A DNA stretch of 59,613 nt, counting the filler, from Nemertoderma westbladi (Eukaryota > Animalia > Xenacoelomorpha), in the NCBI GenBank assembly GCA_032718475.1. It is 3 parts of 3 records of this genome, joined end to end, with 100 filler letters (N's around TTAATTAATTAA, not from the genome) between each part and the next. Parts side by side here need not be neighbours in the genome. Positions count along the whole stretch, not along the records: positions 20,826 to 49,929 come from JAUCBJ010004627.1; 2 more parts are not named here. The stretch is one strand, 5' to 3'. A program made the position numbers and the translations under genes. This document shows positions 999 through 42,654 of the stretch, in pieces. The notes under the pieces were generated by a model, which worked only from the letters and a program-made list of their open reading frames with translations, made no database searches and had not been told where the DNA came from. Each line of letters opens with the position of its first letter. Within the stretch, counting starts at the first letter, position 1.

Positions 999-1037
999 CA
1001 AACATCCCCGTTACCTCCGCCCACAGTCTGCCAACCG

Positions 1038-24268: not shown

Positions 24269-25064
24269 GGGATAGGCGCTAGTTATAAAACCGGAAAATA
24301 AATAACAATACGAAATTATTAACGAAAGTATCGAAATTATAAAACTTAAAATACAATTTCAATTTCGAGTGAGATCGGTATTATTAGAAGACACACTTTA
24401 TATTTTTGAATTAATGAAATCCGATAATTTCGCCCCATTTTCGACACTAAAAGTAATTTAATACCAAATACGGTCTCCGCTGATTGGTTGTTAGGGGTAA
24501 TCCAATAATGGCAAAACACCACAAGATGGCGCTCAAATCTGTACAACACAGTCAGAGTGTAGGCCTACTGCAGTAACTGCATTGCGACTGCAGTACTGTA
24601 GTTACGTTTACGTTAACCTGTTCACACCCGTCGCGTCGTTCCAATTGCCTGCCATGCCAATCAATGTACAGTGTGCACCTGTAACGCGGGGGTACCATAC
24701 GCCGTGATGCGTATGCAGTGTTTGGTCAGGGTACCGGCTGACCGGACTGGTTCCTTTAACTTTACCTCTTCAGGCTGTACCGTGCTTACACCAGAACACT
24801 GATGTGCTGATGCTGAATTGATTCATCCAAGCCGCCATTGGTCAACACCTAACAACCAACCAACAGGCAGTATTTGGTATTAAATTACTTTTAAGGTCGA
24901 AAATGGGGCGAAATTATCGGATTTTATTACTTAAAAAATGTAAAGTTTGCCTTCTAATTATACTCATCTTATTGGAAAGCGATATTTTGTAGATTGTTTG
25001 ATAATTTCGATATTTTCGTTGATAATTTCGACTTTTTCGTTATTTTCGGGTTTTATAACTATCC
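24269..25064. mobile_element. Foldback MITE with long TIRs (Mutator-like)
   Basis: ~190-bp imperfect inverted repeats (24280-24470 vs 24869-25064); flanking direct repeat GATATGTA at 24261-24268 and 25065-25072. Confidence 0.75.
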
Positions 25065-25889
25065 GATATGTACTGCATTTTTTGTTCTATCCTGATATTT
25101 CCTCACAAATGTACCAGCTAAAAAAATATGTATCATTAAAATTAGAACATTTATTACCACCATATGGTGTAAGGAACTGGTATGCAGATTGTAGCATATT
25201 ATACATATATTTTATTATTTATTTATGCACCGAATATATAATATTTACTTATTTAATGGCCATAACAGTCCGAAAAAGATAATTAATATACTGTAGAACA
25301 GCTGTATAAGAAAATACCAAATATAGTGATTTGGTATTGTATTTGTATTAATTTAAAATTTACAATTCGTAGCATATCTAAAAGTTTGAGTTATCAAATA
25401 AAATATATAGTAAAAATAATAAAATTAATTCGTTTTTCGCGCTTTTAAGACTTCGATAATTTTCATCCAACAATTTTAATCATCACAGAAATCTTATGTA
25501 GGTTTGCCATAGAGTTAATGGTATCTTTTCTTTGTGGTAATGTGGCCGCGTATTGGGCTTACGTTACGTAATCCTCGCTATATAATTCCTAACAACTATG
25601 TCAACATTGTAGTCCTTGAGTACAAGATAGTATTAACAGTCCTGTTTCAGATGTTGTGTTCCAGATATCAAACAGGTCTACTGTATGTCTTAAGGTAGTT
25701 ACTGTACAACAAATTACTAACAAAACTCATAGTTGCGAATACTTTAGGGGCATGGTATGTTAAATCGGGCTGAAATACACTTTGGTGCCTGAATTGCTGA
25801 CTTGAGACAACTTTGTTCATGAATAAGGAGTTGGTAGGCTGACATACATTGGTGCTAAGAAATATGTAACATGCATACTCATACACGAA

Positions 25890-27155
25890 GTGGGGCCTTC
25901 GCGCAGCACGTGAAATGAGTTAATGCTAAGTATCAACTCGAAAGGATTATAAAAACATAGGAGAAGATTTTCCCGGAAAACGTTAACCCTCTAGCGGGAG
26001 ACTGGGTAACTGAAGAAGGAAGGATTAGTTTCCCTACAAAGCCACATCCTATGGTCTATTACATATCTACCAAGTTTCCGATTGACGGATCATAAATAAC
26101 GAAATGTTGGAAGGTTTTCACTTTCATACATTTAGCCCTCTAGCGGCATATTAAAGAACTACGGATCGATCACCTTCCTCACAAAGACGAGGCATGTGGT
26201 CTAGTACATACCGGTACTGTATATTCCAAAATTCAGCTTAAATAGATTAAGATCAAGGAATTCGCAAAGGTTATCACTTTCCTACATTTCGCCCTCTAGC
26301 GGCAGACTCGAAAACTCCGGACCGATTACTGTCCACACAAAGACTTAGGATGTCTTCTAGTACATATATGACAAGTTTCAGCGTAATCAGATCATAAACA
26401 ACTAAATGGAAGAATAATTTCACATTCGGGACATTTCGCCCTCTAGCGGCAGATTGGAGAACTGCAGACAGATTAGCCTCCTTTGAAATTTACAGCTAAT
26501 GGTCTAGTACATACTTCCCAAGTTTCAGCTTAAACGGATTAAAAGCAAAGAAATGGGTGGCCATTTAATGTTTAGACATGTGGCCCTCTAGCGGGAGACT
26601 GGAAAACTTCGGACCGATTACAATCCACACAAAGACTCAGGATGTCATCTAGTACATATATGACAAGTTTCAGCGTAATCAGATCATAAACAACTAAATG
26701 GAAGAATAATTTCACATTCGGGACATTTCGCCCTCTAGCGGCAGACTGGAGAACTGCAGACAGATTAGCCTCCTTTGAAATTTACAGCTAATGGTCTAGT
26801 ACATACTTCCCAAGTTTCAGCTTAAACGGATTAAAAGCAAAGAAATGGGTGGCCATTTAATGTTTAGACATGTGGCCCTCTAGCGGGAGACCATTGCACT
26901 GATGGTGTCTGAAAGTCTCTCAAAAATCTCAACTTTTGCTCATATTGATACCTACAAATTTTCAACTTGGCAGCTTTAAATCCGACAAAGTTATTAGCAT
27001 GTCAAAATCGTAACGACGACGACAACGACGACGACGACAACGACGACGACGACGACGACAACGACGACGACGACGACAACTATTTGCATAAATTGACCCA
27101 CCCCCTAACAGTGTCAATTCGCTAAGGCTCCGCCAACTTCGTGGCTCGCCCCACA
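25890..27155 (-). mobile_element. HINE/Helentron-like element with internal tandem units and (CGA)n microsatellite
   Basis: Reverse-complement homolog of 22320-23320; gccctctagcgg units, ~295-bp near-identical duplication, (ACG)n at 27013-27080. Confidence 0.6.
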
Positions 27156-28039
27156 ACCCAATTGATGTGAACCAGAATCGCTAATTAACCCCCCAATAAT
27201 GCTTACTTCTTTCTTGTGATACAAATATCAATCAGTTAAGGTGCAATAGTTAATAATTCCGCGAAATCTCCATTTATCATTACAAATATTTACATAAATC
27301 AATCGGCAAATATAATATACAAATACAACAGTAATCAACCAGTTCAGTCCTTTGGTATATCCAATGTTAGGCCAATCAGTGTATACAGCTATACTGTATG
27401 TAAATCAGGTCCGCTAACTATGATTCTAAGCATTTTGCCAGGATGTTACTTAGGCAAAAACCGCCTTGCAGGGCAGCTTTCAGCAAAAACAGAAGAATGA
27501 GCTTCCGGCCAAGCTGGGCCTACGAATTCTGAGCAATCATGACGTCATGGCCAGTTGCTATCAACTTCCAATAAAATGCTGCCGTGCGTCATTACTGGTA
27601 CTCCAACAAAGAACAGCTGAGTTAGAAAAATGAAAATAAATTTTATTGGCTGTTTTATCCCTGATGTGTACTGGTATCGAACATATGAGGGCGTGTGGAT
27701 CTGACATTTTATAGAGTTTGGAGTAGACCAACTTATCGAGGCCGCGGAAGCTTTTACAGTTTGACATATAGGTCTAATTAGAGTGATTACAATCTAATAA
27801 CATTTGAAAACTTGAATAAATGGCCGCGTTTTTGAAACTGTCACCGGAAAAAAATTATATGTGTACTCGTATAACATTAACACCATTCCCATTCCCGGAT
27901 CCAATAATTCTTAGTAATAACTAACTTGAATCTGCCTCTTACACTCCTATTTCTATCAGTATGCACTTGAAAATAAACAAACACTCTCCCCTGAACTCAG
28001 TAAAAATAAATATTACAACACAGTATACAAGCAAGGACT

Positions 28040-28841
28040 AATCTACTACTAGTAGAGTAGTAGAGTAGAGTACTACTAGTAGTACTACTAGTACCGCACT
28101 GTACAAAGTGCGGTACTGTTGCTTGGTGACGGGTGGTGACGGATACTACTCTTACATTAGGCTACGTAGTTACAATGTTAATGGATTATTTTCGTACCAA
28201 TATCGGTTTGTTCTTATGGAGATATTGGGGTTTAAACACAACGTATTTGACATGAATTGACTAGTAGAGTAGTAGAGTAAAGTACTACTACTAGTACTAC
28301 TAGTAGTACTACTAGTAGAGTAGAGTACTACTAGTAGAGTAGAGTACTACTAGTAGAGTAGAGTACTACTAGTAGTACTACTAGTAGAGTAGTAGAGTAG
28401 AGTACTACTAGTAGTACTACTAGTAGAGTAGTAGAGTAGAGTACTACTAGTAGAGTAGAGTACTACTAGTAGAGTAGAGTACTACTAGTAGAGTAGAGTA
28501 CTACTAGTAGTACTACTAGTAGAGTAGTAGAGTAGAGTACTACTAGTAGAGTAGAGTACTACTAGTAGTACTACTAGTAGAGTAGTAGAGTAGAGTACTA
28601 CTAGTAGTACTACTAGTAGAGTAGAGTACTACTAGTAGAGTAGAGTACTACTAGTAGTACTACTAGTAGAGTAGAGTACTACTAGTAGTACTACTAGTAG
28701 AGTAGCAGAATAGAGTACTACTAGTAGAGTAGAGTACTACTAGTAGAGTAGAGTACTACTAGTAGAGTAGAGTACTACTAGTAGAGTAGAGTACTACTAG
28801 TAGAGTAGAGTACTACTAGTAGAGTAGAGTACTACTAATAG
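28040..28841. repeat. AGTAG/CTACT palindromic satellite, left arm (unique stretch at ~28095-28258)
   Basis: Variants of agtagagtagagtactact. Confidence 0.95.
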
Positions 28842-30969
28842 TTTTTTTTTTTTGGTGCTTGGGTGAGATGATAGTATAATAACATAGTTGATACAATGGA
28901 TTTCAAATTGCACTATTACACCCTATCACCAAATCTGATTTATACAATGAGGTACAGTGATACGGATGTAAGGGGGAAATTCAAAACAGTTGGTTGTTTA
29001 TGTTGTAGGCCTACTGCAGTACTGGTCAGCTATTGTAGGCCTGTACGACAGCGCTGTACTACCAGGCTACGGCTCAGTGTCAGCGTTGTCCAACCGAATG
29101 GAGGCATCAGACACTGGACAATGAACCGGCCGTTTAGAGGCTGACCTACAACCTCGAAGGCAGAGCAGGGAGGAACGAAGCAACGCGAAGTTTAACTTGC
29201 GCCGGATCCACGTGACGCATTCCGAGTACCTGACCTCGCGTTTGTCCGCGAGCTTCTGTCCCAGGCGCTTAACAAACTGGCGCGTGGTCGGCGCCATCCC
29301 GCCAAAGGCCGAGAATATGAGGGGGACGAAAGTAGAATGTTCCACCTCCCGTATCCTCTCCTCGTACTTAAGAATCTTACGATTCTCGTGGTGGAGGTGC
29401 GCTGCGTCTAGGGACATAGCCGCGTTCGTCGCCGCCAGCGGGTTAAACACGGACACGTCGATGAACGACCGCTGGAATCGGTTTCCCCAGAAGCCGCTCA
29501 CAGACACATCCAGCCTCGCCTGCTGGTCCGTCGAGGTGGTACGATGGGTGAAAGTTTCACCGGATAACGGCTGGAGCATCGGCTCAACAGCAACGCTGTA
29601 GGCGACCTCAGTGAGCGAGTTGGCGACGAAATCACGTATCTCATTGTGCCTGATGGAGGGGAAACCTCCAGTTGGGCACGACAGGACGTGGGTTGCAGAA
29701 AATCGCGCCCCACAGGCACAACGAGATGGTAGATTCTTCGGACACCAACCGTAGCGGAGACACACCGCATCCCGGAACCCTTCTTTACTCAGGTGAGTAA
29801 CTTGTAGGGTTAGTGGCTTGGAGTTTAACCAAGCTGACGCACCTTTTTCTGTTGTGAGTTCACACAGTTTGCGTTGGTCTGTGGGTAACTGGGCGTAAAC
29901 TTGTTCCCTTTTAGTACGAGACGATGTTATGGACTCCGCCTTCACCTCGATCACGATCCGTCTCTGTTCAGTCCGCACCGCTGCCATCGACTCCGCATCT
30001 GCGAACGGTTCACAGACTCGGCGCGAGTGGTCATACTGCGTCTCCAAGTCGGAAGGAACCGGGATACCCAATCCGCCATCCCGAGTTGGGAGGGAGACTA
30101 GTTGGCGTTCAACCGCCGATAGCGACGGCCTGTCGAGCAGTTTGGCGATGAACCGCTGCAACGTCTCCTCCAGCTTCCCGAAGTGCTCCGTTGCGTTGGG
30201 GATGACGCGGGTTAGGAACCTCCACCTGCAGGAGAGCCCGAACGCCAAACCGGCGTACGCGCAGTGGGGGTCCACCGCGGCAATCTCGGCGAGTCGATCG
30301 ACTTCCTCCGCGAACTCATCGACTTTCTCCTCGACGTAGCTGGAACAAAATTCCTCGGTACCGATAACGCCGCCGAGTAGCTTGTTGCCCGTCGTATCAA
30401 TTGTGACAATGGTGTTCGCAAACAACGCTGCCGCCTCCACTAACTTATCCGGCTTTACAGTCAGGACACACTTCGACGGGTAGTACCCGTACAATGGTCC
30501 CCTTGAACACGCGATATCAAAGAACTTCCTGAGTTCTCCCAGTCGGCCCCCCGCGTTCCCATCGTCCGCATACCACTTCTGTTCCACGTCGCACCCGCGG
30601 TCCAGTTCGTCAAGGAGCGGCGTTATACCGCAGCCAAACATCGGCATCGCCACCGGGTCTCCTTGGGTGGAACCCTCCTCCGAGTAGAGGGTTTCCCCGC
30701 CGACGAATAGCCGCGCTGGTTCGCTGTAACAATTAGTTACTATCGTGTGCAGCGCCGGACAGACTAAACCGATGTTATGCAACGCTGCGCTGCGGTTTAA
30801 CACATTAAATGCGTTGGTAGCGTCGATCTGTAATATGCCGTCGCAGTCCTCAGAGGCAAAGGAATCGTTTAAACTGTGTATCGCGTGTTCGATTCCCGCT
30901 TTCTGTCCAAGACACATCTGGACAGATCCGCCGACGGCCTGTAAATCTGGACTGATACACAGCACCGTT
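28842..30969 (-). mobile_element. 5'-truncated CRE-clade non-LTR retrotransposon (restriction-like endonuclease type)
   Basis: Poly(A) tail (T run at 28842-28853), 3' UTR, TSD AGTACTACTAATAG at 28828-28841 and 30976-30989. Confidence 0.85.
29067..30965 (-). CDS. RT, CCHC zinc finger and RLE endonuclease (N-terminally truncated)
   Basis: IDATNAFN, GSTQGDP, YADD, GGLG, CACG..HVLSC, RHNEIRD, RLD..FIDV..K..KY. Confidence 0.9.
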   Translation of the reverse strand: MLCISPDLQAVGGSVQMCLGQKAGIEHAIHSLNDSFASEDCDGILQIDATNAFNVLNRSAALHNIGLVCPALHTIVTNCYSEPARLFVGGETLYSEEGSTQGDPVAMPMFGCGITPLLDELDRGCDVEQKWYADDGNAGGRLGELRKFFDIACSRGPLYGYYPSKCVLTVKPDKLVEAAALFANTIVTIDTTGNKLLGGVIGTEEFCSSYVEEKVDEFAEEVDRLAEIAAVDPHCAYAGLAFGLSCRWRFLTRVIPNATEHFGKLEETLQRFIAKLLDRPSLSAVERQLVSLPTRDGGLGIPVPSDLETQYDHSRRVCEPFADAESMAAVRTEQRRIVIEVKAESITSSRTKREQVYAQLPTDQRKLCELTTEKGASAWLNSKPLTLQVTHLSKEGFRDAVCLRYGWCPKNLPSRCACGARFSATHVLSCPTGGFPSIRHNEIRDFVANSLTEVAYSVAVEPMLQPLSGETFTHRTTSTDQQARLDVSVSGFWGNRFQRSFIDVSVFNPLAATNAAMSLDAAHLHHENRKILKYEERIREVEHSTFVPLIFSAFGGMAPTTRQFVKRLGQKLADKREVRYSECVTWIRRKLNFALLRSSLLCLRGCRSASKRPVHCPVSDASIRLDNADTEP

Positions 30970-31004
30970 AGTAGTAGTACTACTAATAGTACTACTACTA
31001 CTAG

Positions 31005-31167
31005 CCAGGGCGCATATCTCTGCCTTGCATCCTTAAGTGGTAGCTAAATGAGTACTGGAGTTTCCTCTGGGGAGTAAAGTTCTGGGGGGACCGCACTGGA
31101 AATAAGTCGTCAAACTTTGTGCGTAATCCCTGGCCTAGTGGCCGAAGAAAATTTACTTTACTTTTTT
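31005..31167 (+). mobile_element. Short SINE/LINE 3' fragment inside the satellite
   Basis: Unique sequence with a SINE-like ggtagctaaatgagtac segment and a (TTTAC)n-like tail, flanked by satellite. Confidence 0.45.
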
Positions 31168-31433
31168 AGTAGAGTAGAGTACTACTAGTAGAGTAGAGTA
31201 CTTCTAGTAGAGTAGAGTACTACTAATAGTACTACTAGTAGAGTAGTAGAGTAGAGTACTACTAGTAGTACTACTAGTAGAGTAGAGTACTACTAGTAGA
31301 ATAGAGTACTACTAGTAGTACTACTAGTAGAGTAGTAGAGTAGAGTACTACTAGTAGAGTAGATTACTACTAGTAGTACTACTAGTAGAGTAGTAGAGTA
31401 GAGTACTACTAGTAGGTACTACTAGTGACTAGT
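31168..31433. repeat. AGTAG/CTACT satellite, right arm
   Basis: Same units as 28040-28841. Confidence 0.95.
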
Positions 31434-31787
31434 CCTTGAGTACAAGTTATTTTATATTCATTATTATTCTGTGACAATTAATTTCATAATTTTAAATGCG
31501 GAATAAACGTACCTAATTACTATTACAAAAAAGGTATTATTCTGTACTGTAATATTCGTATCAAAATATGATTGCTGGAAGCAATATAGGCAGACGGCAG
31601 CACGATTTGTTTCTAATGCCTCGAATAGCTTAAATTATGTTGAAGGGCCCATAATACCCCACCCAATAAAGCATACTGTACATTAAAACCTTATGTACAA
31701 AGAAACATTAAGCCGTTAAACTGTTGTACAATGCTAACATAATTAATCAGTCATTATAACTATTTACAGTGTACTACTGTAAATAAT

Positions 31788-32142
31788 TGTGTGTAAAGTA
31801 GCACTTTACAGTGTGATGATCCGAGTGGCTTTGTTACACAAACGAACGTTAGTGAGTGAGTGAAAATAAAGCCACGAGGATCAGAACACTGTAATAACTA
31901 TTTACATACTTGTGTGTAAAGTAGCACTTTACAGTGTGATGATCCGAGTGGCTTTGTTACACGAACGAACGTTAGTGAGTGAGTGAAAATAAAGCCACGA
32001 GGATCAGAACAATGTAATAACTATTTACATACTTGTGTGTAAAGTAGCACTTTACTGTGTGATGATCCGAGTGCTTTGTTACACGAACGAACGTTAGTGA
32101 GTGAGTGAAAATAAAGCCACGACGATCAGAACACTGTAAAGT
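31788..32142. repeat. ~122-bp tandem repeat, 3 copies
   Basis: tgtgtgtaaagtagcactttac...gatcagaacactgtaa repeated. Confidence 0.9.
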
Positions 32143-32895
32143 ACTTTGCAACATACGTATGTAGTATACGTATGTATGTAGTTTTATTCTATAATTGTAA
32201 CATTGCGAAATGATTGTATATATATTATAAGTGATAGAAACTGCACAAATTAAATTAGTTGCTGTATAAATAAATGTAAAAATGACATAAATTATGTTAT
32301 AAAAAAGTTAGCTTATATTTATGGTGGCGTTTGGAGCCATGTTATAATAATATAGCTAGGCCCTACTGGTTATTAATAGCTATACCCCGCCTACCGGTAG
32401 GTAATGCAGTAGGCCTATCTGGCTGTCAGGCAAATTTCCACCTATTGTTTACGTGGTAACCATTGACGCCGTAACTTTACAGCTCGCCGTCATTGGTTAC
32501 TACATAAACATGGGACATTACAATACCCACTACAATACTAAATGTACAGGCCAATACAATACTGTAATGTCCTCTAAAGTTGTAAAGTGTTAAATAAGAA
32601 CTCGCTGTTAATACTAACGGCATTGAGTAATGTTACAATTTTGGAATAAAATTAATTTACTGTAACTTTAACAGGCTACATCGCGCAGTTAATTTAGCCC
32701 GGATGTGCGGTGTGTTGGTATTATTATTATTCTCGCCTATTAGGCGCAGCACCAGTCAAGCTGGTATATAATTGAATAGTTAATTAATGAAGTAAAATGA
32801 CACATCAGTGACAATAAAATATGGCTAATCGTAAACAGATTATAATAACGGAGTACAAAGCGAATAGAGGCAGTTTAGTATTAGTAGTGATAAGT

Positions 32896-33120
32896 GGGTG
32901 TAAACACTACACCGACAACCGACAGCCGACAACCACTGCCGACAACAGTAAATAAGACAATGTAACCTGAGTTCGCGACTCTCGTTTATTGTTTTGGTTA
33001 TAATAACCTTCCACTGTAACCTGTTCCTTTCCATCAATTAATAAATAACATTAATTAGCTATAATAATGGTTGTTGGCGTTGGTTGTCGGTAGTCGGTTG
33101 TCGGCATAACGTTTACACCC
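32896..33120. mobile_element. Mutator-like MITE
   Basis: TIR GGGTGTAAAC..ccgacaaccgac / gtcggttgtcgg..GTTTACACCC; 9-bp TSD (g/a)tgataagt at 32887-32895 and 33121-33129. Confidence 0.8.
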
Positions 33121-33326
33121 ATGATAAGTTACATATAATTTTACTACAAATTTATATGTATAAAAATTATATAGCATAGCAATAATTATCCAGTTGATTA
33201 AGAAATCATTCATGACATATAAATAAATTATTATTTGAGACATTGAGAGATTGTATCCTTGCTGCACCTAATATTGTTCGAAAATCTGAATAATAAATGA
33301 TATTTGTTAAGTATTTATAACTAAAT

Positions 33327-34763
33327 ATGATTGCCCTTCAGCATGTACTTATTTTACTTTCACTTTCGTACACACTTTCCTACTCAGTTTCGGAGAAGTT
33401 CCAATACATAGAAACGTGTTGGTTGGAAAACGAACCGATATGGGTGAACCTAACTGACCTTCCAGACCCATACGCGAGTCAATCGGTGGTGAAACCAACC
33501 CAAATGGTTGATATCCCAGAGAAGCCGTTACTAAAGGTTCCCAAAGGTTTCCGAGTCAACGTGTTTGCTTCCGGACTCCGGAATCCCCGGTGGTTGGTGC
33601 TGACGCCGGAAGACCACATACTGGTAACCGAGACCAATGAAAATGTAATCCGTTTACTGAAGAACGCTGGTGGAGTGGCTGATGAGTTCATGGAGTTCGC
33701 GACGTCGGCGAACGGGCTCAACATGCCCTTTGGTATGGCTTTCCAACGCCGAGGAACCGACCAGGACTACTGGTTCTTCCTCGCCAACATAGACGAGGTG
33801 CGCCGATTCGAGTACACGTTCGGTACATTGCGACTAGAGGGTGAAGGGACTCGGATTACGGAGCTGCCTGGGGAAGGGCAACACTGGACACGGAACGTTA
33901 TAGTGGCTCCGGATAGCTACCCGGACAATCAACGCTTGTTTGTGTCCATCGGATCGAAGAACAATGCCGCTGTGGAGGATGCACCGCGCGCATCAGTAAT
34001 CACCATGGCAACAACGGCGCCAACAACGGAAGGCTGGACAACATGGGCATCAGGGATCCGAAACCCTGTCGGAATGGCGTTCCATCCAGTAACCCACGAA
34101 CTGTTTGTAACCGTAAACGAACGGGATCTACTTGGCGACGATCTCGTCCCTGATTACTTCACTCGCGTCCGTAAAGACGAGTACTACGGCTGGCCCTACG
34201 CATACTTCAACCCCGAGCTGCTAGACCCCCGGTTCGTGGACCCCAAGACTGGTACCAGCATCCGTCCGGATCTGGTGGCAGACACCGCGCTGCCCCAGGT
34301 CCTCCTGCAGGCCCACTCCGCCGCGCTGGGACTCACCTTCTACACAGGGGACATGTTCCCCTCGGACTACCGGAACGGTGCGTTCGTGGCGTTCCGAGGC
34401 TCGTGGAACCGCGATCGCGGGACCGGGTTCAAACTCGTGTTCATCCCCTTCAACTCGGCGACTAACCAACCCATTGGCTACTACACCGACTTCCTAACCG
34501 GGTTCCTGGTAGACCCCTCTGGACCCACCAGCTGGGGCCGACCCGTGGGCGTTCTAGAACTCTCAGATGGAAGTATCATCTTTACCGAGGAAAAGAACCA
34601 ACAGATTTACCGGATATCCTACGCCAGACCCTACGGACTAACAGAAGAACAACTAGCATGCCAATCAGCTGTTAGCGGAAAGGAACCAATTACACTGAGG
34701 AACTACATATTTGGTGAAGGCCTATATTCATTACTTATATTTATTATTACCTATATTCAGTAA
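33327..34763 (+). CDS. Bacterial-type PQQ-dependent glucose/L-sorbosone dehydrogenase-like beta-propeller protein; intronless, secreted or anchored
   Basis: VPKGFRVNVFASGL.NPR, HWTR, LFVSIGSKNN, ASGIRNPVG, VNERDLLGDDLVPD, YGWPY, AHSAALG, FRGSWNR, GRPVG; N-terminal signal peptide and hydrophobic C-terminus. Confidence 0.9.
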   Translation: MIALQHVLILLSLSYTLSYSVSEKFQYIETCWLENEPIWVNLTDLPDPYASQSVVKPTQMVDIPEKPLLKVPKGFRVNVFASGLRNPRWLVLTPEDHILVTETNENVIRLLKNAGGVADEFMEFATSANGLNMPFGMAFQRRGTDQDYWFFLANIDEVRRFEYTFGTLRLEGEGTRITELPGEGQHWTRNVIVAPDSYPDNQRLFVSIGSKNNAAVEDAPRASVITMATTAPTTEGWTTWASGIRNPVGMAFHPVTHELFVTVNERDLLGDDLVPDYFTRVRKDEYYGWPYAYFNPELLDPRFVDPKTGTSIRPDLVADTALPQVLLQAHSAALGLTFYTGDMFPSDYRNGAFVAFRGSWNRDRGTGFKLVFIPFNSATNQPIGYYTDFLTGFLVDPSGPTSWGRPVGVLELSDGSIIFTEEKNQQIYRISYARPYGLTEEQLACQSAVSGKEPITLRNYIFGEGLYSLLIFIITYIQ

Positions 34764-34769
34764 ACTATA

Positions 34770-36215
34770 CGAAAGGGTAATTATAACAACTTATCTCTAT
34801 TTAAACAAAATACTAAAATTACATTAACCTCACAATACGGATTCCGCAAAAAATCAACAACTACTGGGGAAGCAATACTTACTGTCACAGAAAGCATTCA
34901 TCAAAAAATACTTGACTCAAGAATCAGCATGCCTCATAGCTATAGACCTCAAAAAAGCATTCGACACACTCAACCATAAAATTAAAACTATTAAAAAAAC
35001 TCGAAAACTATGGCATACGTGTCACGCCACACAAATGACTAACAAGTTACTTACAAAATAGATCACACTATGTACAAATAAGAAACATACAATCACACCT
35101 CAACTCGCAACTTGCGGTACACCACAGGGGGCCATTCAAAGTTCAATGCTGTTCCTAATCTACGTAAACGAGGGAAACTGGACGCAAAACTCGCCTTGAC
35201 GAATTAATATCCCGCCTCAATGTTAAATTCTCAATTTAGGGAAAGGATCAGGTTAGGCCTACAGTGGCACGTTATTTTAACCAAAACAATAAACTAAACA
35301 CAATAGAACAGGTTACAGTTTTATTTTTGAGAGTAATCAACTGTTATTTGCGTCCAATTTCCCCTGGAGAGGGATGAATTTTATTGCGTCCAGCCCCCCC
35401 CCCCCCCCCCCCCCCCCCCCTATCTGAATTAGTTACAACGATATTCGCAAGACAACACCAACATATTACACAGTCACCGTGATCCTCACATACTAGCAAC
35501 AACTGTAAACACTGAACTTGATAAACTAAACTTATGGTTACTCGATAACAAACTTTCTCTTTATCTAAATAAGACCAAATATTTATTCATATCCAACATA
35601 CACAACAAAACTGGCACAGACATAGTCATACAAGACAAAGCAATTCAAAAAAACTAAATTTTTAGGTCTATATATTGATAATCGATTAACATGGAAAGTC
35701 CACTGTGGTTATATACTGAAAAAGATTTATAAATCAGCTGGACTTTTTTTTAAGCTCCTTTATATTCTACCGCTAAGCTAAATATTTTAAAACTGCCATA
35801 GCACACACTCATTCACCCTTACCTTACTTATGGTGTAGTATTATGGGGGGATACTCACACAAAATACATTATGCCGATTACAATCAAAGTGAACAAGATC
35901 CTAGGAGCCATTCCTTTTAGTCACTACCGCTTGACGGTCATTATAAACTGGAAAGTGGAAACCGCCAAACTTATGTGGGAAGCAAGTCAATAATAATAAA
36001 AAACAAGACTTTATCTTCACTATTCCAATAACACTCGTTCCACTGCTATAAATAACTACTTTGTCCCGCTAGTACGGCTTAACCAAATACCATTAACCAT
36101 TAAAATACAATGGTGTAAAAATTTGGAACTCCATTAACATATAAATAAAAGAGAAAAAAACAAAAAGGTCATTTGCAAATTCCCTAAAAAGTCAATACAT
36201 AAAGCATTTAAATTA
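34770..36215 (+). pseudogene. Degenerate CR1/L2-group LINE RT fragment
   Basis: Fragments IDLKKAFDTLNH, KKLENYGIR, PQG, KFLGLYIDNRLTWK.H, HPYLTYGVVLWG with many disablements. Confidence 0.75.
35172..35363. mobile_element. Small MITE family (other copies at ~46253-46432 and ~55392-55548)
   Basis: TIR gggaaa(c)tggacgcaaa / tttgcgtccaatttccc; three near-identical copies in the window. Confidence 0.75.
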
Positions 36216-38595
36216 AATTAGTAATAAAAAATTAAAACAAAATCGCTATTTTAACATTATTATTATTATTATATTTATTTATATATATCATCTTTTCACT
36301 CACTTTTAACCTGAAATACATAAATATAAATTAATACTAGGGCCTAATATATAGAAAATAATATATATAGTACAAAAATGTCTTACTTTTTGTCCTTTTT
36401 CCAGATCGCAAAAGCACAATAAAACAATAAAAAATAAAAATTTATTACGGAAGAGATGGTATCCCTACAACACCATCCCCTCCCTCCTCTACCGAATGCA
36501 CCCTCATCTGAATGAAACCCATCACCTATAATGAATACATACATTTCGTTTCTACATACTTCCGATCTTTCTCCCCAGTATAACAAAAACTAACCAATAT
36601 ATATAAAACGTTCACCTTTTATCAATGTATGTGTTTTACTAACATTGTTATAATTTAAATATTTGGTGGTGGGGATATCTAGTAATCTAGTAACCGGATG
36701 AACTAGAAAAATATAAGAGCCTAGTGCTCAAACTATCCTATCCTAGAGCATTTGAATTGCCGCCAAGCTCTGTCCAGTACTCTCTGGTCGTGTTATCCAT
36801 TGGAAAATTCGTAAACCAATAGTGTGTTTTTCACTTTCTAAATTCTGAATCCCTTTGTCAGAGTGTAGATTTGGCAAGATGGTGACTGCTCATTGGTTTT
36901 TTTGACCAGGAACGAGCACTGATGACTGACTGTGTCAGTCTGTGTGTTGCCTATGCACAGCATACCTGTTGTGTTTGCCAATAACATCGGGCAGAACACC
37001 GAGAATCATAGTCAATTACTTGGCTGGGGATACTATACTGATTACTGCTGTACTTGTATATTATACTTACTGACCTAATGATTAACCTATGTAAATATTG
37101 TTTATGCCATACGGAGAATATGAGGACCCATAGTTATTACCGAACTGATTGTTATTCGCATCTATGTATGCTCTGGTGGGTATTCTGGTTCAACCCAAGT
37201 GGTGTGGCATGCTTAAAATTATTTTGTAGCCCCAACCAAGTGCCGGATTTACCTTAAGACATATAAGGCACGTGCCTTAGGGCCAGCCGAAAATACGGGC
37301 CATTTATTATCAGCGAGTCATTCCTGTGAAAAATATATTTCTATCTGAAAAATCCACATTTTTTGTCACTAAAATTTGTTGAAAAAAGAGCAAGAAAATG
37401 CAACTTTCGACTACTTTCTAGTTTCTATCACTAAATTTGTGATAGAAAAGTACAAAATTCGTGCTCAGTCGACCGACAGGTGCTGTGTTATTATTTACTG
37501 GGTTCGAGACCAGACGGTAGTGGCACAATATTTAGATATTTCAATTTCATCATTATTATTAACGTAATTTAGATTCACAAAAAGTTATGAAAAACTTTTA
37601 CGGGAAACTCTTATTATAAATATAGACCAGACCCTAATACATAAAATAAAGGATAAAATAGTTGTAGATAAAATAGTAGTCGATAAAAAAAAAACGTGTC
37701 AGAAATAACTCCTTGTCACAAATTTAATTTAATCGAAATTCAGATGTCCTGCCCTCGTGTATTGAATTTTGCACTCGATGGCATTTTAGCTGCCAATTCC
37801 TGCAAAACCTAAAACTCTCGGACAGCATAATTGAATTTTAGTATATTAAAATTAGTGACAAAAAGGGCTCCTTTCCGTGACTTTTCTCTTATTACATTAC
37901 ATTATCATTGGCGATATCTCCTTTGCAGAAGTGAAGGCTGCTGCAAAGAGCATTAAGACCAATCGTGCCAGTGGAGTAGATGGTGTTCCCCCTGAGGTCT
38001 TTAAAATACCTGAGTGTTTAAAGCTCATCTATCCCATCATAGTAGACGTGTACCGAACAATAAGAGTCCCACAAGAAATGAAAACAAATAAGTTGGTGCC
38101 AGTTCCCAAGAAGGGCAACCTAACAACACTCTATGGTTCTTTTCGGGGAATCTTATTGATCTCGATTGCTGCAAAGCTATACAATAGAATTCTATTAAAT
38201 CGCATCAGGGATCCCATTGAGAGACTGCTCCGTGGAAATCAGAATGGGTTCAGTAAAGGCCGTGGGACCATGGAGCCCATTTTGGCACTTAGAAGGATAA
38301 TTGAAGAATTATCAAAAAAGAAAGACAGGCATCTGGCTGTTATCTTTGTTGACTTCTTCAAGGCCTTTGATTCAGTCTCTCGCTCACGTATGTTTGTTAT
38401 TATACATTTATTATATAGGAAGGGATCTAGGGGTCTCAACCTCGAATGATAAGTTTATTTTACCGAAAATAACTTATATTTTATTTTGCGCAATTGTAGG
38501 ACTAATCCCATCACATGCGTACTTTTTAACCGGGTAGTGTACAAATTTAGGAATCGCGTAATTTTTCTTGAAATTAATATCTCGTATCTCTCCAA

Positions 38596-38638
38596 ACCAC
38601 GTACGCGTTTCGACCTTACTGGGTCTCATCAGCGTGGT
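38596..38638 (-). ncRNA. Minimal type I hammerhead ribozyme
   Basis: ACCACG-CUGAUGA-GACC cagtaa GGTC-GAAA-CGCG-UA-CGUGGU: complete catalytic core, stems I and II, short palindromic stem III. Confidence 0.9.
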
Positions 38639-38701
38639 GTCGGATTCGAAACTGGGACCTCGAGGAGGAAGCCGAGACTACAACCACTAGGCCACAGGTT
38701 C
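38635..38701 (-). promoter_or_regulatory. tRNA-derived Pol III promoter (A and B boxes)
   Basis: A box TGGCCTAGTGG (38684-38694), B-box-like GTTTCGAATCC (38642-38652), followed by ..gacACCA. Confidence 0.7.
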
Positions 38702-39425
38702 TTGAGATATGGAGTATTAATTTCAAAGCCAGCTGCCATTTTATTAGCCCCTGATTTTTTATTATTGATAGTAACAATGTGTTGGCAAGCTGTATTTATC
38801 GAGGTGTTTGTTATTATACATTTATTATAGGAAGGGATCTAGGGGTCTTAACCTCGAATGATAAGTTTATTTTACCGAAAATAACTTATATTTTATTTTG
38901 CGCATTGTAGGACTAATCCCATCACATGCGTACTTTTTAACCGGGTAGTGTACAAATTTAGGAATCGCGTAATTAAATTTGTACACTACCCGGTTAAAAA
39001 GTACGCATGTGATGGGATTAGTCCTACAATTGCGCAAAATAAAATATAAGTCCTCCAGGGAGACACACTTGCACCATTCTTGTTCATAATTGTGGTTGAC
39101 TATGTTTTACGCATGTCCTTAGATCAAGTAACATATTTGCAATACTGCAATATCAAAGATTGACAGTTTATATTAGTATGTATATAATTATCATTAGGCT
39201 ACTAGGCCAAGAGGTAGTACAGTCACAAATCGTTATTAATACAGTAGTACATAGTTAGAATACCTAAAGTATTACATATTCAAATTTCCCTCCACCTCAT
39301 TAATCCATAAATCTACTACAATTCCTTTTTTTTTCAAATTAATGTGATGACCAGATTATACATTAATTATTATAGTTTACTATAATAGTCTAGTGTATTA
39401 TTATAGTTTGTGTTCCATTATGATT

Positions 39426-40280
39426 TCAATTTTCATAAGCACAGTCCTTCAGTCGATCACTATTCCTGATGTCTGCGTTTGACATATTTTTATACTTGTC
39501 CATCAATATGTTCGCCTTTGGACCTAATGCCTCGGGGTGTATAGGTCGAATATGTCGGCGGTTGCGATACAACAACTTTCCAGATGGAACTAGTAATCTA
39601 TATCGACGATTTCCACAGTGTCTAACAACCATTGCAGGCGTATCCCATCTGTTTGAAGTAGGATCTAAAATTAAAACGCATTGTTGTGGTGTGATTTCTA
39701 TGGCAGGAACTACATTATTATTTTTATCAAAATCACATTTCTGTTTAATCTTGTTATTCTTCCTTCGTTTCTCAACAGTTATCCATTGGTCAGAAGAAAT
39801 TGGAGTAAAAGATTCTGCTATTGCAGGTAAACAGGTGTTTATTCGACGACCAAACATTAAAGTAGCTGGAGCTACACCGGTTGAAGAATGTTGAGATGCA
39901 GCTAATTCCATAAACCCTTGAGCGAATTCATCTGAATGAAAGTCGCCATCAACTCGTTCTAATAATAACTTGACCTTTTTCACTGCGGCTTCTGCAGATC
40001 CATTGCTTTGGGGAAATTTTGGCGAACTAGGGCACCAATGGATTGACCAAGTTTTGAACCAAATCATCATTTCTTCTGATGAAAAACAAGTTTGACCATC
40101 AGATCTGATTACTTGAGGTACTCCATACTCCATGAATAATGCGCGAAGTAGTTTTTTTATATATGATGATGATGTTGACTCATCGCAAAGGCGAATCCAC
40201 AAGAATCCTGTTAACTCATCAACAATTATGAGAAATTCCTGGCCCCCATACTTTGCAAAGTCCGTGCACAATACCTCCAT
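39426..40280 (-). CDS. Duplicated integrase core plus native C-terminus
   Basis: 643-bp tandem duplication, 39677-40319 and 40320-40962. Confidence 0.85.
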   Translation of the reverse strand: MEVLCTDFAKYGGQEFLIIVDELTGFLWIRLCDESTSSSYIKKLLRALFMEYGVPQVIRSDGQTCFSSEEMMIWFKTWSIHWCPSSPKFPQSNGSAEAAVKKVKLLLERVDGDFHSDEFAQGFMELAASQHSSTGVAPATLMFGRRINTCLPAIAESFTPISSDQWITVEKRRKNNKIKQKCDFDKNNNVVPAIEITPQQCVLILDPTSNRWDTPAMVVRHCGNRRYRLLVPSGKLLYRNRRHIRPIHPEALGPKANILMDKYKNMSNADIRNSDRLKDCAYEN

Positions 40281-40314
40281 TGGCCTTGTTGCACAAGGAT
40301 AGGGAGTGAGTGGT

Positions 40315-42654
40315 TCAGCCGCATTGTTGTGGTGTGATTTCTATGGCAGGAACTACATTATTATTTTTATCAAAATCACATTTCTGTTTAATCTTGTTAT
40401 TCTTCCTTCGTTTCTCAACAGTTATCCATTGGTCAGAAGAAATTGGAGTAAAAGATTCTGCTATTGCAGGTAAACAGGTGTTTATTCGACGACCAAACAT
40501 TAAAGTAGCTGGAGCTACACCGGTTGAAGAATGTTGAGATGCAGCTAATTCCATAAACCCTTGAGCGAATTCATCTGAATGAAAGTCGCCATCAACTCGT
40601 TCTAATAATAACTTGACCTTTTTCACTGCGGCTTCTGCAGATCCATTGCTTTGGGGAAATTTTGGCGAACTAGGGCACCAATGGATTGACCAAGTTTTGA
40701 ACCAAATCATCATTTCTTCTGATGAAAAACAAGTTTGACCATCAGATCTGATTACTTGAGGTACTCCATACTCCATGAATAATGCGCGAAGTAGTTTTTT
40801 TATATATGATGATGATGTTGACTCATCGCAAAGGCGAATCCACAAGAATCCTGTTAACTCATCAACAATTATGAGAAATTCCTGGCCCCCATACTTTGCA
40901 AAGTCCGTGCACAATACCTCCATTGGCCTTGTTGCACAAGGATAGGGAGTGAGTGGTTCAGCCGGAAGTGCTGGTCTAGATCTCTGACATGCATGACACT
41001 CATTCACCACTCGTTCAACGTCATCTCCAAGTCCAGGCCAATAGAAAAGTTCTCGTGCTCTAGCTTTCATCTTCTCTATTCCTGTGTGTGACTTGTGTAA
41101 TTTACTCAATAATTCTGGTATTAATAATTGAGGAGGTATAAGCCGCTGGTTTCTGAGGATAACTCCATCATTTCCAACTGTTAACTCATGTTTTATCTTT
41201 TTAAATTTTCTTGAATAATTGTTTTTTGAGAAATCGCCGGTATTTAATGCTACTATCAGTGATTGGTAATCCTGGTCTTCCATAGCCTTTGATCGTACCT
41301 GATCTAATCCTCTGTTGGGTATAAACTCTTTAACTGCTTCAGTCACGGCTGCTGCACAAATGGTTGCAAACTGATCAATATCAGTATTATCATCTTCATC
41401 TGGAGGTGAACAAGGGTATCGAGATAATGCGTCTGCCACATTATTTTCTTCTCCTTTTTTCCACTCAACTGTAAAATTAAATCCAGTGAGTTTTGTTCGC
41501 CAATTTAGTATTCTTTTATTTTCTATCTCTGCAAGACTTTGTATATTGAAGATTGTCGTCAGTGCTCGGTGATCGGTTTGGATTGTGAAATGTGGACATC
41601 CCTCAACGTATATTTTAGTTTTGTTAATGGCCCAGTAGATTGCCAATGTTTCAAGTTCTACTGCTGCATAATTTTCTTCTGCCGATCGTAACATGCGGCT
41701 GCCACATTGAAGTAGTGTCCGTGGTTCATTCAACTCCCCCTCCTGGAAGAGAGCAAATCCAAGTCCACAAGTACTTGCATCTGTTTCTAAGATGAGATGT
41801 TTACCTCGTTCAAACATTCCGAGAATAGGTGGTGACAATAAAATATCCTTTGTTTTTTCCATTGCCTCAGTGTGTTCTTGTAACCAATGAAATGTGTTAC
41901 GAGTTTGTAATATATTTCGGAATGGGGTCATTGTTTGTGCTAAATTTGGAATAAATGATGCCATCTGGTTGGCTAAACCAACAAATGAGCGTAAGTCTGT
42001 TCTTGTCTTTAGAATAGGAAATGACCTAATAGCTTCCACTTTACGTGAATCAGCTGTAATATGTCCAGCTGATATATGATAGCCAACAAAGTCAATTTGT
42101 TCTGTCGCCAATACACTCTTTGTAGAACTAATTGTGAACCCATGTTTCATACAACGTTCTAGAACTTCTGCCACATTTAGAACAAGTTCAGGTAATGTCT
42201 CCTTTCCAATAGCAATATCATCCATGACTTTCGATAAGTCATCAATGCCACTGAGTGCCACATCCCCACGGAATGAAAAGGCATCTCCAGTGCTGGAAAA
42301 ACCCATGGGACTACGTAAAAAGCGAAATTTACCTTTATTTGTTAGAAAAACGGTCATCCAGGAACTTTCATTATCGAGCTCCATTTGCCAATATCCTTTT
42401 ACAAGAACTATTTTAGCAAAGAATCGGTGGTTCCGTTGAAACACATTCACAGCCTCCGCAGGTGTGGGTACTCTATGGATAGTGCGATCTATCTGATCAT
42501 TGAGTTTCTTCAGGTCAACACAAATACGGACATCTCCTGATGGTTTGCCAACAACCACCAGTGGGTGACACCATGGTGTTGGTGTATCCCCAACAGGTGT
42601 GATGATTCCGCGATTCAACATATAATTTAAGGCTTCATCAACCTTTTCCTTCAA
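40315..42654 (-). CDS. Pol (RT, RNase H, integrase), probably disabled
   Basis: VRICVDL, VMDD, ETDAS, TDH, ADALSR, HHCC and DDE core; first RT Asp appears replaced by Val (AKIVLVKGYWQ); frameshifted from gag near 42690. Confidence 0.9.
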   Translation of the reverse strand: MKEKVDEALNYMLNRGIITPVGDTPTPWCHPLVVVGKPSGDVRICVDLKKLNDQIDRTIHRVPTPAEAVNVFQRNHRFFAKIVLVKGYWQMELDNESSWMTVFLTNKGKFRFLRSPMGFSSTGDAFSFRGDVALSGIDDLSKVMDDIAIGKETLPELVLNVAEVLERCMKHGFTISSTKSVLATEQIDFVGYHISAGHITADSRKVEAIRSFPILKTRTDLRSFVGLANQMASFIPNLAQTMTPFRNILQTRNTFHWLQEHTEAMEKTKDILLSPPILGMFERGKHLILETDASTCGLGFALFQEGELNEPRTLLQCGSRMLRSAEENYAAVELETLAIYWAINKTKIYVEGCPHFTIQTDHRALTTIFNIQSLAEIENKRILNWRTKLTGFNFTVEWKKGEENNVADALSRYPCSPPDEDDNTDIDQFATICAAAVTEAVKEFIPNRGLDQVRSKAMEDQDYQSLIVALNTGDFSKNNYSRKFKKIKHELTVGNDGVILRNQRLIPPQLLIPELLSKLHKSHTGIEKMKARARELFYWPGLGDDVERVVNECHACQRSRPALPAEPLTPYPCATRPMEVLCTDFAKYGGQEFLIIVDELTGFLWIRLCDESTSSSYIKKLLRALFMEYGVPQVIRSDGQTCFSSEEMMIWFKTWSIHWCPSSPKFPQSNGSAEAAVKKVKLLLERVDGDFHSDEFAQGFMELAASQHSSTGVAPATLMFGRRINTCLPAIAESFTPISSDQWITVEKRRKNNKIKQKCDFDKNNNVVPAIEITPQQCG

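What the first reader, a model, noticed from the sequence alone, without database searches (positions are those of the whole stretch)
33327..34763. Horizontally acquired PQQ/sorbosone dehydrogenase-like gene with eukaryotic targeting, nested in a cadherin intron
Seen: an intact, intronless 478-aa ORF with bacterial sorbosone-dehydrogenase motifs and a GC-rich core. AT-richer ends encode a signal peptide and a hydrophobic, GPI-like or transmembrane tail. It is flanked by eukaryotic TEs on the same contig as spliced cadherin exons, which argues against contamination. Known: the family is mainly bacterial, fungal AA12 enzymes use PQQ, and no PQQ-dependent enzyme is firmly established in animals. 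Inference: a domesticated cell-surface oxidoreductase that might use PQQ from microbes or diet.
Basis: partly seen in the sequence, partly recalled or inferred. Interest (0 to 1): 0.8.

Follow-up and report, generated by a model that had tools for sequence, protein, structure and literature searches.

The report
Bacterial PQQ enzyme gene in animal
An animal genome carries, inside an intron of a cell-adhesion gene, an intact gene whose closest relatives are bacterial; it likely came by gene transfer and likely makes an exported sugar-oxidising enzyme that would need PQQ, a bacterial cofactor for which I found no proven animal enzyme.

Summary
The ORF is real (33327-34763, 478 aa, no introns). 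It sits in a 26,746-bp intron of a five-exon cadherin frame, within one gap-free contig. Four runs of three studies hold it; in one DNA run its contigs match host single-copy depth. Best hits are bacterial (54-60% identity; all named ones cyanobacteria); the exact donor is unresolved. The predicted fold matches fungal AA12 enzymes (Z about 40), and the catalytic His, Ca2+ ligand and PQQ contacts are kept, except His560 (Arg here, as in its bacterial kin). A second sequence type about 8% away shows excess synonymous change, and a run carrying a cDNA adapter holds the gene deeply, so it is likely transcribed. Corrections: GC content is not diagnostic; the window copy's last 16 residues come from a decayed LINE fragment, whereas the second type has its own hydrophobic tail; the window copy may be a weakened duplicate or allele. 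Centipedes already have transferred PQQ-sugar-dehydrogenase-like genes, untested biochemically. The scan had not noted this on other DNA. Verdict: genuine transfer, likely secreted PQQ dehydrogenase, activity unproven; interest 0.58.

The parts
33327..34763 (+). Intronless ORF, 478 aa, sorbosone-dehydrogenase-family six-bladed propeller (window copy, 'type A')
33327..33386 (+). Predicted signal peptide (residues 1-20), no lipobox cysteine; read by hydropathy, no SignalP run
   Evidence: 109 of 120 top bacterial hits have a lipobox-like Cys by a loose pattern
33432..34625 (+). Bacterial-derived core (residues 36-433) with R88, H186, R245, N246, N264, E265, D267, D276, H330, R357, W360, N361, R405
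33879..33887 (+). Gln185-His186-Trp187; the loop before the putative catalytic His lacks two residues (Tyr-His) that type B and the top bacterial hits have
34626..34712 (+). Host-added C-terminal linker (residues 434-462) with Cys445 and small residues 447-451, candidate GPI attachment region; aligns to type B
34714..35030 (+). Decayed, frameshifted LINE reverse-transcriptase fragment; its start supplies codons 463-478 and the stop of type A (edges approximate)
21722..48467 (+). 26,746-bp phase-0 intron of a cadherin-repeat gene that hosts the gene on the same strand
21570..21721 (+). Cadherin exon upstream of the host intron
48468..48686 (+). Cadherin exon downstream of the host intron
35177..35362 (.). 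Short host repeat with copies at 46254-46434 (94%) and 55385-55549 (90%); a part of it also at 32984-33052 (84%), so it flanks the gene on both sides
   Evidence: summed depth in the thousands to over 100,000 in these bins

Best explanation
This intact gene lies in an intron of an animal cadherin gene and likely came from a bacterium by gene transfer; it likely encodes an exported, possibly GPI-anchored dehydrogenase that would bind calcium and PQQ taken from microbes or food and would oxidise sugars outside the cell. Shown here: the open frame, its place in host DNA, the bacterial kinship, the kept active-site residues, and excess synonymous change between two sequence types. Predicted: the six-bladed propeller fold. 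Inferred from CcPDH, TrAA12 and sGDH: the apo-protein is secreted, loads Ca2+ (Asp267, Glu265 backbone) and PQQ (Arg88, Arg245, Asn246, His330, Arg357, Trp360, Asn361, Arg405); His186 acts as general base and a hydride passes from sugar C1 to PQQ. There is no cytochrome domain, so electrons would go to an outside acceptor (quinones, metal ions or oxygen). Likely substrates, by family analogy only, are 2-keto-aldoses (D-glucosone, L-sorbosone) or L-fucose-type sugars, in gut lumen, mucus or epidermis. The bacterial lipoprotein anchor was replaced by a plain signal peptide plus a C-terminal extension. Type B (own hydrophobic tail, full loop before His186) is likely the fully working form; the window's type A is likely a derived copy whose tail was cut by a LINE insertion and patched by read-through into it.
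For: Host linkage: one gap-free contig with cadherin exons on both sides; in run X1, contigs identical to the window have depth 11.1 and 9.7 in the gene, 10.4 in the intron and 8.8 over cadherin exons; an X2 contig extends at least 101 bases to both sides of the start codon; 4 of 8 listed runs, from 3 studies of one organism, hold it. Origin: 120 best hits at 54-60% identity over 84-91%, every named one a cyanobacterium; 17-20% identity to fungal AA12, 11-14% to HHIP; three trees place it with a cyanobacteria-dominated bacterial clade (97 SH-aLRT; 97/98; 100/94). Fold: mean pLDDT 92.5; TrAA12 and CcPDH Z 39.9-40.5, rmsd 2.5-2.6, about 350 aligned; sGDH/Asd Z 30-33; HHIP Z 23-26. Site: CcPDH residues from PMC6881789 map through the profile alignment to residues invariant in 40 of 40 top hits and in the query. 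Selection: 19 synonymous to 13 replacement changes among the 32 listed sites in the frame, against 25-29% synonymous expected, p 4e-5 to 3e-4, none replacing an active-site residue. Transcription: run X4 has a loose end that reads as a template-switch cDNA adapter and holds type B across 33267-34713 at depth 549-722 and type-A-like pieces across 33554-34232 at 146-198. Type B leaves the window sequence exactly at 34713 and goes on, in frame, with a hydrophobic run (V-L-F-F-L-F-I-A-K-V, my translation of the 30 loose letters).
Against: No activity or PQQ binding was measured; none of the close bacterial relatives has a solved structure (phmmer finds only E. coli Asd and CcPDH), and I found no biochemical study of them. 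His560, called unique to AA12 in PMC6881789, is Arg. TrAA12 keeps the site yet has low rate and weaker PQQ affinity (PMC6881810), so kept residues do not guarantee a useful enzyme. Type A lacks two residues next to His186, has Phe368 where 40 of 40 top hits and type B have Tyr, and its tail is LINE-derived. X4 is listed as 'DNA?' with no library record; its RNA nature is my inference from one adapter-bearing contig. The 32 sites are only those shown of 189 difference rows, and some are allelic. The AU test does not reject a position just outside the cyanobacteria-dominated clade (p 0.22), and the sister group changed in each tree. No listed contig bridges the type-A junction at 34713, and no piece spans gene to cadherin exon.
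Confidence: 0.62

Rival explanations
1. The transfer is real and type B works, but the window's copy (type A) is a decaying duplicate or damaged allele: secreted without a working anchor, or inactive.
For: Two-residue loss beside His186, Phe for an invariant Tyr at 368, and a LINE fragment replacing the last 16 codons exactly where type B diverges. In X4 type-A-like pieces are listed at lower depth than type B.
Against: The frame is open over 478 codons with all site residues; loops this short occur in 40 of 117 aligned rows; type A occurs in all three studies with 0-4 differences per piece; the LINE-derived tail is still hydrophobic (mean 2.3 over residues 466-477).
Confidence: 0.2
2. The protein is kept as a PQQ- or sugar-binding protein, not a working dehydrogenase: it would capture PQQ for the animal's use or withhold it from microbes, much as animal HHIP uses the same fold without catalysis.
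For: All PQQ contacts are kept; there is no partner redox domain; animals are not known to make PQQ (PMC13384848, says no eukaryotic pathway or transporter is identified). HHIP shares the fold.
Against: The catalytic His and the Ca2+ ligands are kept along with the binding residues, which a pure binder would not need; many single-domain AA12 enzymes also lack a cytochrome (PMC6881810).
Confidence: 0.1
3. The gene is bacterial contamination or a chimeric join in the assembly.
For: Best hits are bacterial, no introns, and no long read spans gene and exons; the window has at least one likely assembly slip nearby (perfect 645-bp duplication that an X3 contig skips).
Against: Found in three studies of the same organism; host-level depth in X1; no bacterial neighbours, no ribosome-binding site; AT-rich added ends absent from all 120 top hits (tail 48 residues against 2-26); two or three diverged types; host repeats on both sides; no protein above 60% identity in the protein searches.
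Confidence: 0.04
4. The gene is an old eukaryotic gene, inherited vertically (related to fungal or amoebozoan AA12, or to HHIP) and lost in most animals.
For: AA12-like genes occur in fungi and amoebozoa (PMC4133262); the host lineage seems poorly covered by the protein collection (its DAAF9 finds nothing above 30% over full length), so related animals could not be checked.
Against: About 58% identity to cyanobacterial proteins against 17-20% to fungal AA12; shares the clade-typical Arg357 and Glu421 with the bacterial top hits; no eukaryote named among the 120 hits or.
Confidence: 0.04

Closest known systems
Cyanobacterial 'sorbosone dehydrogenase family' / 'PQQ-dependent sugar dehydrogenase' proteins (e.g. 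Microcoleus, Planktothrix, Gloeothece; PF07995 with PF22807 and PF23500)
   Same: 54-60% identity over the whole propeller, same active-site residues including Arg at the His560 place.
   Different: They are mostly predicted lipoproteins ending 2-26 residues after the last strand; this protein has a plain signal peptide, a 48-residue tail, two cysteines (31, 445), one N-glycosylation sequon (Asn41) and several loop insertions. Their names are annotations, not assays.
Fungal CAZy AA12: CcPDH (6JT5/6JWF; PMC4133262, PMC4332668, PMC6881789) and TrAA12 (6H7T; PMC6881810)
   Same: Best structural matches (Z about 40); same Arg273-, His363-, Arg430/Asn431-, His539-, Trp563/Asn564- and Arg621-type site; secreted; some fungal members have a GPI anchor or membrane tail.
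   Different: 17-20% identity, so a separate origin; His560 is Arg; no AA8 cytochrome or CBM1; host is an animal.
Centipede horizontally acquired 'GDH' genes resembling PQQ-sugar dehydrogenase (So et al. 2022, PMC9151784)
   Same: Bacteria-to-animal transfer of a PQQ-type sugar dehydrogenase gene, expressed (gut, leg, venom gland); no PQQ assay in the section I read.
   Different: I could not obtain their sequences, so whether they are of this subfamily or of the sGDH/Asd type is open; no centipede protein appears among the named hits here, which points to an independent event.
Soluble glucose dehydrogenase sGDH (Acinetobacter, 1C9U) and E. coli Asd/YliI (2G8S)
   Same: Six-bladed PQQ propeller, catalytic His, two of three PQQ-binding arginines.
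   Different: Lower Z (30-33); they use Lys377 and Arg408 where this protein has the Trp-Asn loop and an N-terminal Arg, as AA12 does.
Animal hedgehog-interacting protein HHIP
   Same: Same propeller superfamily, secreted or surface-bound animal protein.
   Different: 11-14% identity, Z 23-26; vertically inherited and not a dehydrogenase (the latter recalled).

Membership tests
Glucose/sorbosone dehydrogenase family (PF07995), cyanobacteria-dominated subfamily | Score over the Pfam cut-off and full-length kinship | tested here: met
   33.9 bits against 25; 54-60% identity over 84-91%; trees
CAZy AA12 (CcPDH/TrAA12 type) | Six-bladed beta-propeller closest to AA12 structures | tested here: met
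   Z 39.9-40.5, rmsd 2.5-2.6, 347-352 aligned; predicted model, pLDDT 92.5
CAZy AA12 (CcPDH/TrAA12 type) | Catalytic His (His363) and Arg430/Asn431 | tested here: met
   His186, Arg245, Asn246
CAZy AA12 (CcPDH/TrAA12 type) | PQQ carboxylate contacts Arg273, His539, Trp563/Asn564, Arg621 | tested here: met
   Arg88, His330, Trp360/Asn361, Arg405
CAZy AA12 (CcPDH/TrAA12 type) | His560 hydrogen bond to the C-9 carboxyl, described as unique to AA12 | tested here: not met
   Arg357; Arg in 40 of 40 top hits, His in 64 of 76 more distant rows. I therefore say it works like AA12 and do not file it as AA12 proper
CAZy AA12 (CcPDH/TrAA12 type) | Ca2+ ligands Ser449 (backbone), Asp451; Asn448 and Glu471 through water | tested here: met
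   Asn264, Glu265, Asp267, Asp276; HMMER put this CcPDH stretch in an insert, so the match was read by eye through the TrAA12 row
CAZy AA12 (CcPDH/TrAA12 type) | Pfam TrAA12 (PF22807) match | tested here: inconclusive
   Not reported for the query; a cyanobacterial control scored only 17.9 bits against a cut-off of 30.9, a second control none
PQQ-dependent dehydrogenases | PQQ- and Ca2+-dependent sugar oxidation; PQQ binding | not testable with these tools
   No assay; PQQ is not among the ligands offered for complex prediction
sGDH / Asd (Acinetobacter, E. coli type) | Lys377 and C-terminal Arg408 as PQQ contacts instead of the Trp-Asn loop and Arg273 | tested here: not met
   The query has the Trp360-Asn361 loop and Arg88
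Functional bacteria-to-animal gene transfer | Physical linkage to host genes, seen in independent samples | tested here: met
   no single read or contig spans gene to exon
Functional bacteria-to-animal gene transfer | Groups with bacteria in a tree | tested here: met
   no named eukaryote was in the trees; nesting inside the clade not proven (AU p 0.22)
Functional bacteria-to-animal gene transfer | Absent from most animals, present in a limited lineage | tested here: inconclusive
   No animal named among top hits, but only the top 120 were listed and close relatives of the host seem missing from the collection
Functional bacteria-to-animal gene transfer | Purifying selection | tested here: met
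   19 synonymous, 13 replacement among 32 listed sites; pN/pS about 0.23-0.28; partial data
Functional bacteria-to-animal gene transfer | Transcription | tested here: inconclusive
   Deep contigs in X4, which carries a cDNA adapter but is not on record as RNA
GPI-anchored protein | Signal peptide, small omega residues, spacer, terminal hydrophobic run | tested here: inconclusive
   Pattern read by eye; fits type B better than type A; no GPI predictor available; the end of type B's tail was not seen

The most novel reading that the evidence does not exclude
This is an animal enzyme that truly needs PQQ as its cofactor: a domesticated bacterial AA12-like dehydrogenase, re-addressed to the cell surface, duplicated, and loaded with PQQ from microbes or food, which would make PQQ a real vitamin for this animal; the window copy would also show a LINE fragment recruited as a replacement anchor signal.
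Probability: 0.45. Interest if true: 0.82.

Novelty: new member of a known kind. Interest (0 to 1): 0.58.

Why it matters
Whether any animal enzyme uses PQQ as its cofactor is an old, disputed question; the papers read here name fungal AA12 and a trypanosome protein as the eukaryotic cases and call the vitamin role unproven (PMC6881810, PMC13384848, PMC13088180). This gene is a one-exon, one-domain candidate with the full site, easy to express and assay with and without PQQ, and it comes with a natural pair (types A and B) that differs at the loop beside the catalytic histidine and at the anchor. A positive assay would give a direct case of an animal depending on a bacterial cofactor through a gene taken from bacteria.

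Tried and rejected
No whole genome is held, so copy number, synteny and host PQQ-synthesis genes could not be searched. No RNA holder listed; this blank was not used as evidence. In X4 no cover was seen over the type-A tail beyond 34713, over type-A-like 5' and 3' parts, over much of the intron or over the gypsy element; holes in contigs prove nothing and were not used. GC content as a sign of foreign origin: rejected. Transmembrane tail: rejected as unlikely. A named donor: three trees gave three answers (P0011+P0087; P0002+P0127; unresolved); a longer loop in blade 2 is shared with 4 of 210 pattern-matched proteins (351 examined), all unnamed, at 8 residues against the query's 10, so it is a lead only; cluster look-ups gave no organism for these. 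Pattern scans of genome and metagenome contigs found only distant relatives, best segments 24-48%. pqqC search in 5 genomes of distant family carriers: 1 of 5 over the cut-off; no cyanobacterial genome handle was available, so it says nothing on the donor clade. Plain tblastn of the tail region against the window's own LINEs was no better than shuffles (best 20 bits, shuffled maximum 23.9); a PDB search of one fragment found nothing relevant; two of three fragments had no Pfam hit; the frameshift-aware score beat shuffles for one of two LINE probes (60 against a maximum of 36 in 40 shuffles; the other 45 against 46). Pfam did not detect the single cadherin exons. The X4 joint 35046-36456 was tested as a splice and has no GT-AG or CT-AC ends. 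ESM Atlas gave only bacterial and fungal clusters. Paper searches for sorbosone dehydrogenase or PQQ with transfer into animals gave only the centipede paper as relevant; one search found nothing on bacterial 2-keto-glucose dehydrogenase, and that paper is not held. One supplement file of PMC9151784 (scanned PDF) could not be read and one was cut, which may bear on the centipede genes' subfamily.

Full report
Observation. The frame 33327-34763 on the + strand gives 478 residues without a stop; an in-frame stop lies just before the ATG and no Shine-Dalgarno-like word precedes it. It matches Pfam GSDH above the cut-off. The core (codons 36-433) is 56% GC, the ends 26-43%, the flanks 35-36%. The host genes DAAF9 and ALKBH3-like in the same window are 51% GC, so base make-up does not mark the gene as foreign.

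Setting. The window's only gaps are at 20726-20825 and 49930-50029. Between them five exons join by GT-AG into an open frame of about 282 residues with cadherin motifs in proper repeat spacing (several nearby splice choices also keep the frame); the exon at 48468-48686 hits cadherins in the PDB, best E 1e-10. The gene lies on the same strand in the 26,746-base intron between exons 2 and 3. A short host repeat stands on both sides of it and recurs at 46254 and 55385. The host is an animal that I could not place: its intronless DAAF9 finds 22 hits, the best full-length ones vertebrate at 29-30%.

Is it in the animal? Four of eight listed runs, from three studies of one coded organism, hold the stretch; one may be the source of the assembly, and X2 and X3 are one sample. 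In X1, contigs identical to the window have depth 11.1 and 9.7 in the gene, 10.4 in the intron and 8.8 over cadherin exons. In X2 and X3 the pieces are less even (gene 55-64 against intron 45.5 in X2). An X2 contig runs at least 101 bases to both sides of the start codon. No listed piece spans from gene to exon or across position 34713. Contamination is unlikely, since the ends are absent from bacterial relatives: the tail after the last strand is 48 residues against 2-26 in 120 of 120 top hits, and 109 of 120 have a lipobox-like cysteine that the query lacks.

Origin. The 120 best of 7,031 hits are 54-60% identical over 84-91% of the query, and every one with an organism name is a cyanobacterium; the exhaustive search of representatives tops out at 57% for full-length hits. 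A profile search with the two nearest unnamed proteins added one Rhodothermales protein among named cyanobacteria. Trees of 72, 36 and 37 rows (chosen subsets of the hits, LG+G4) hold the query with this clade at 97, 97/98 and 100/94 support on a long branch, but with a different sister each time, and the AU test does not reject a place just outside the clade (p 0.22). So the source is bacterial and of the cyanobacteria-dominated subfamily; the donor itself is not identified. No named eukaryote was in the trees; identity to fungal AA12 is 17-20% and to HHIP 11-14%.

Fold and site. The model has mean pLDDT 92.5. TrAA12 and CcPDH are the best matches (Z 39.9-40.5, rmsd 2.5-2.6, about 350 aligned), above sGDH/Asd (30-33) and HHIP (23-26). 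I took the CcPDH ligands from passages of PMC6881789 and mapped them through the profile alignment (chain offset 239): Arg273=Arg88, His363=His186, Arg430/Asn431=Arg245/Asn246, Asn448/Ser449/Asp451=Asn264/Glu265/Asp267 (read by eye), Glu471=Asp276, His539=His330, Trp563/Asn564=Trp360/Asn361, Arg621=Arg405. Those tabulated are invariant in 40 of 40 top hits (Asp276 was not tabulated). His560 is Arg357, as in 40 of 40 top hits; an arginine could pair with the same carboxylate (inference). Because that residue is described as unique to AA12, I file the protein in the bacterial sorbosone-dehydrogenase family and say that it works like AA12.

A second sequence type. All runs hold a type B about 8-9% away (62 differences in 769 bases, no gap, in X4), and X1 holds a third. 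Three types in X1 mean two loci if the sample is one diploid animal, or divergent alleles if it is a pool; I cannot tell. Among the 32 differences listed inside the frame (of 189 rows, 40 shown,), 19 are synonymous and 13 replace a residue, against 25-29% synonymous expected (p 4e-5 to 3e-4; pN/pS about 0.23-0.28). None replaces an active-site residue. In the X4 piece 33267-33583, 19 of 20 differences are listed: 8 fall in the 60 bases before the ATG and none in codons 1-19. Type B has six extra bases in frame after 33878, Tyr-His, which restore the bacterial loop before His186, and Tyr at 368 like all 40 top hits. The window's type A is thus the derived state at both places, although loops this short occur in 40 of 117 aligned rows.

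The tail. Behind and under the stop, the frames read as pieces of a LINE reverse transcriptase in the right order: one piece hits RVT_1 at E 0.002, a frameshift-aware alignment to one of two LINE probes of the window scores 60 against a shuffled maximum of 36, and reads pile up there as on a repeat. The fragment begins at about 34714; its exact start rests on recalled motifs. Type B leaves the window sequence at 34713 and continues in frame with V-L-F-F-L-F-I-A-K-V (the end is not shown). So both types end in a hydrophobic run after the same linker (Cys445, Ser447, Ala448, Ser450), but type A's last 16 residues are borrowed from a transposon. A GPI signal fits type B well by eye and type A less well; a transmembrane helix fits poorly. 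The only two cysteines (31, 445) lie in the added ends and might pair; untested.

Transcription. No holder is on record as RNA. Run X4, guessed as DNA, has a contig that ends in 24 letters which I recognise as the SMART template-switch adapter (name recalled; 19 papers hold the sequence with 'template switching', listing only). X4 holds type B from 33267 to 34713 at depth 549-722 and type-A-like pieces from 33554 to 34232 at 146-198. I read this as likely transcription of the gene, best shown for type B. Contigs give no level or strand.

Mechanism. Inferred by analogy: secretion, loading of Ca2+ and outside PQQ, base catalysis by His186 and hydride transfer to PQQ as proposed for TrAA12 and sGDH (PMC6881810, passages), with electrons passed to an outside acceptor because no cytochrome is fused. 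CcPDH prefers D-glucosone, L-fucose and D-arabinose (PMC4133262, passages), and a bacterial homologue oxidises 2-keto-D-glucose (cited in PMC6881789), so these are the first substrates to try. The role (digestion of microbial sugars, mucus chemistry, oxidant production) is open.

Comparison and novelty. Centipedes have two transferred gene families resembling PQQ-sugar dehydrogenase, expressed in gut, leg and venom gland (PMC9151784, section 10 and supplement search); their subfamily could not be checked. Fungal AA12 proteins with GPI or membrane tails are known. A PQQ-dependent enzyme is reported for Trypanosoma cruzi, of another architecture (PMC13384848, passages). Six paper searches found no report of this subfamily in an animal; the library lacks most subscription papers. 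Earlier notes of this scan hold nothing on it. Also seen: PMC4332668 (passages), PMC13088180 (passages), bioRxiv 2024.02.19.579948 (passages; a brown-algal protein, different case).

Verdict. A genuine bacteria-to-animal transfer (about 0.9), under selection and likely expressed, most likely a secreted PQQ-dependent sugar dehydrogenase (0.62 for the whole reading). It is a new member of a known kind whose value lies in making the animal-PQQ question directly testable. Interest 0.58.

Noticed in passing
window 39677-40964: A perfect 645-base tandem duplication inside the gypsy integrase region; an X3 contig skips one copy, so it is likely an assembly slip or a private duplication.
   Followed up: partly
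window 39125-44817: Gypsy-type element with 99% identical LTRs (39125-39320, 44622-44817); contigs join 39120 to 44817 in three DNA runs, the form without the element's body; LINE fragments lie on both sides.
   Followed up: partly
window 34970-35046 and 36456-36740: One X4 contig of 408 bases starts with the cDNA adapter at 34970 and joins 35046 to 36456 with a 2-base overlap and no splice-type ends: a + strand RNA downstream of the gene from a haplotype with a 1.4-kb deletion, or a template switch.
   Followed up: partly
window 34754-35153: X2 holds a second version of the 3' flank (40 differences, 20 gaps) at the same depth as the window's version, not matched by doubled depth over the gene body; unexplained.
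   Followed up: no
window 50409-53696 and 56512-57375: Full-length DAAF9 (1095 aa) and an ALKBH3-like 2OG-Fe(II) oxygenase are each one open frame without introns, beside a cadherin gene with a 27-kb intron (the ALKBH3 label is recalled).
   Followed up: partly
window 29067-31043: A 658-codon frame on the - strand with reverse-transcriptase-like and restriction-like endonuclease motifs (recalled; no Pfam hit) sits between two TAG-rich microsatellite arrays (28260-28842, 31167-31433): possibly a microsatellite-targeting LINE.
   Followed up: no
window 7377-10358 and 12369-15354: A 3-kb direct duplication at 99.7% of broken frames with Helitron-like motifs (label recalled, not tested).
   Followed up: no
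window 120-3827: Two adjoining open frames (292 and 942 codons); the second has endonuclease and reverse-transcriptase domains: an apparently intact LINE.
   Followed up: no
window 57340-58626: Satellite of 31 copies of a 41-base unit starting at the end of the ALKBH3-like frame.
   Followed up: no
window 31468-31600 and 33120-33230: Variant contigs at both places have the same depth in X1 (18.3) and X2 (22.9) though the places are not alike, hinting at a second haplotype or copy that lacks the 1.5 kb between them and shares the gene's upstream flank.
   Followed up: partly
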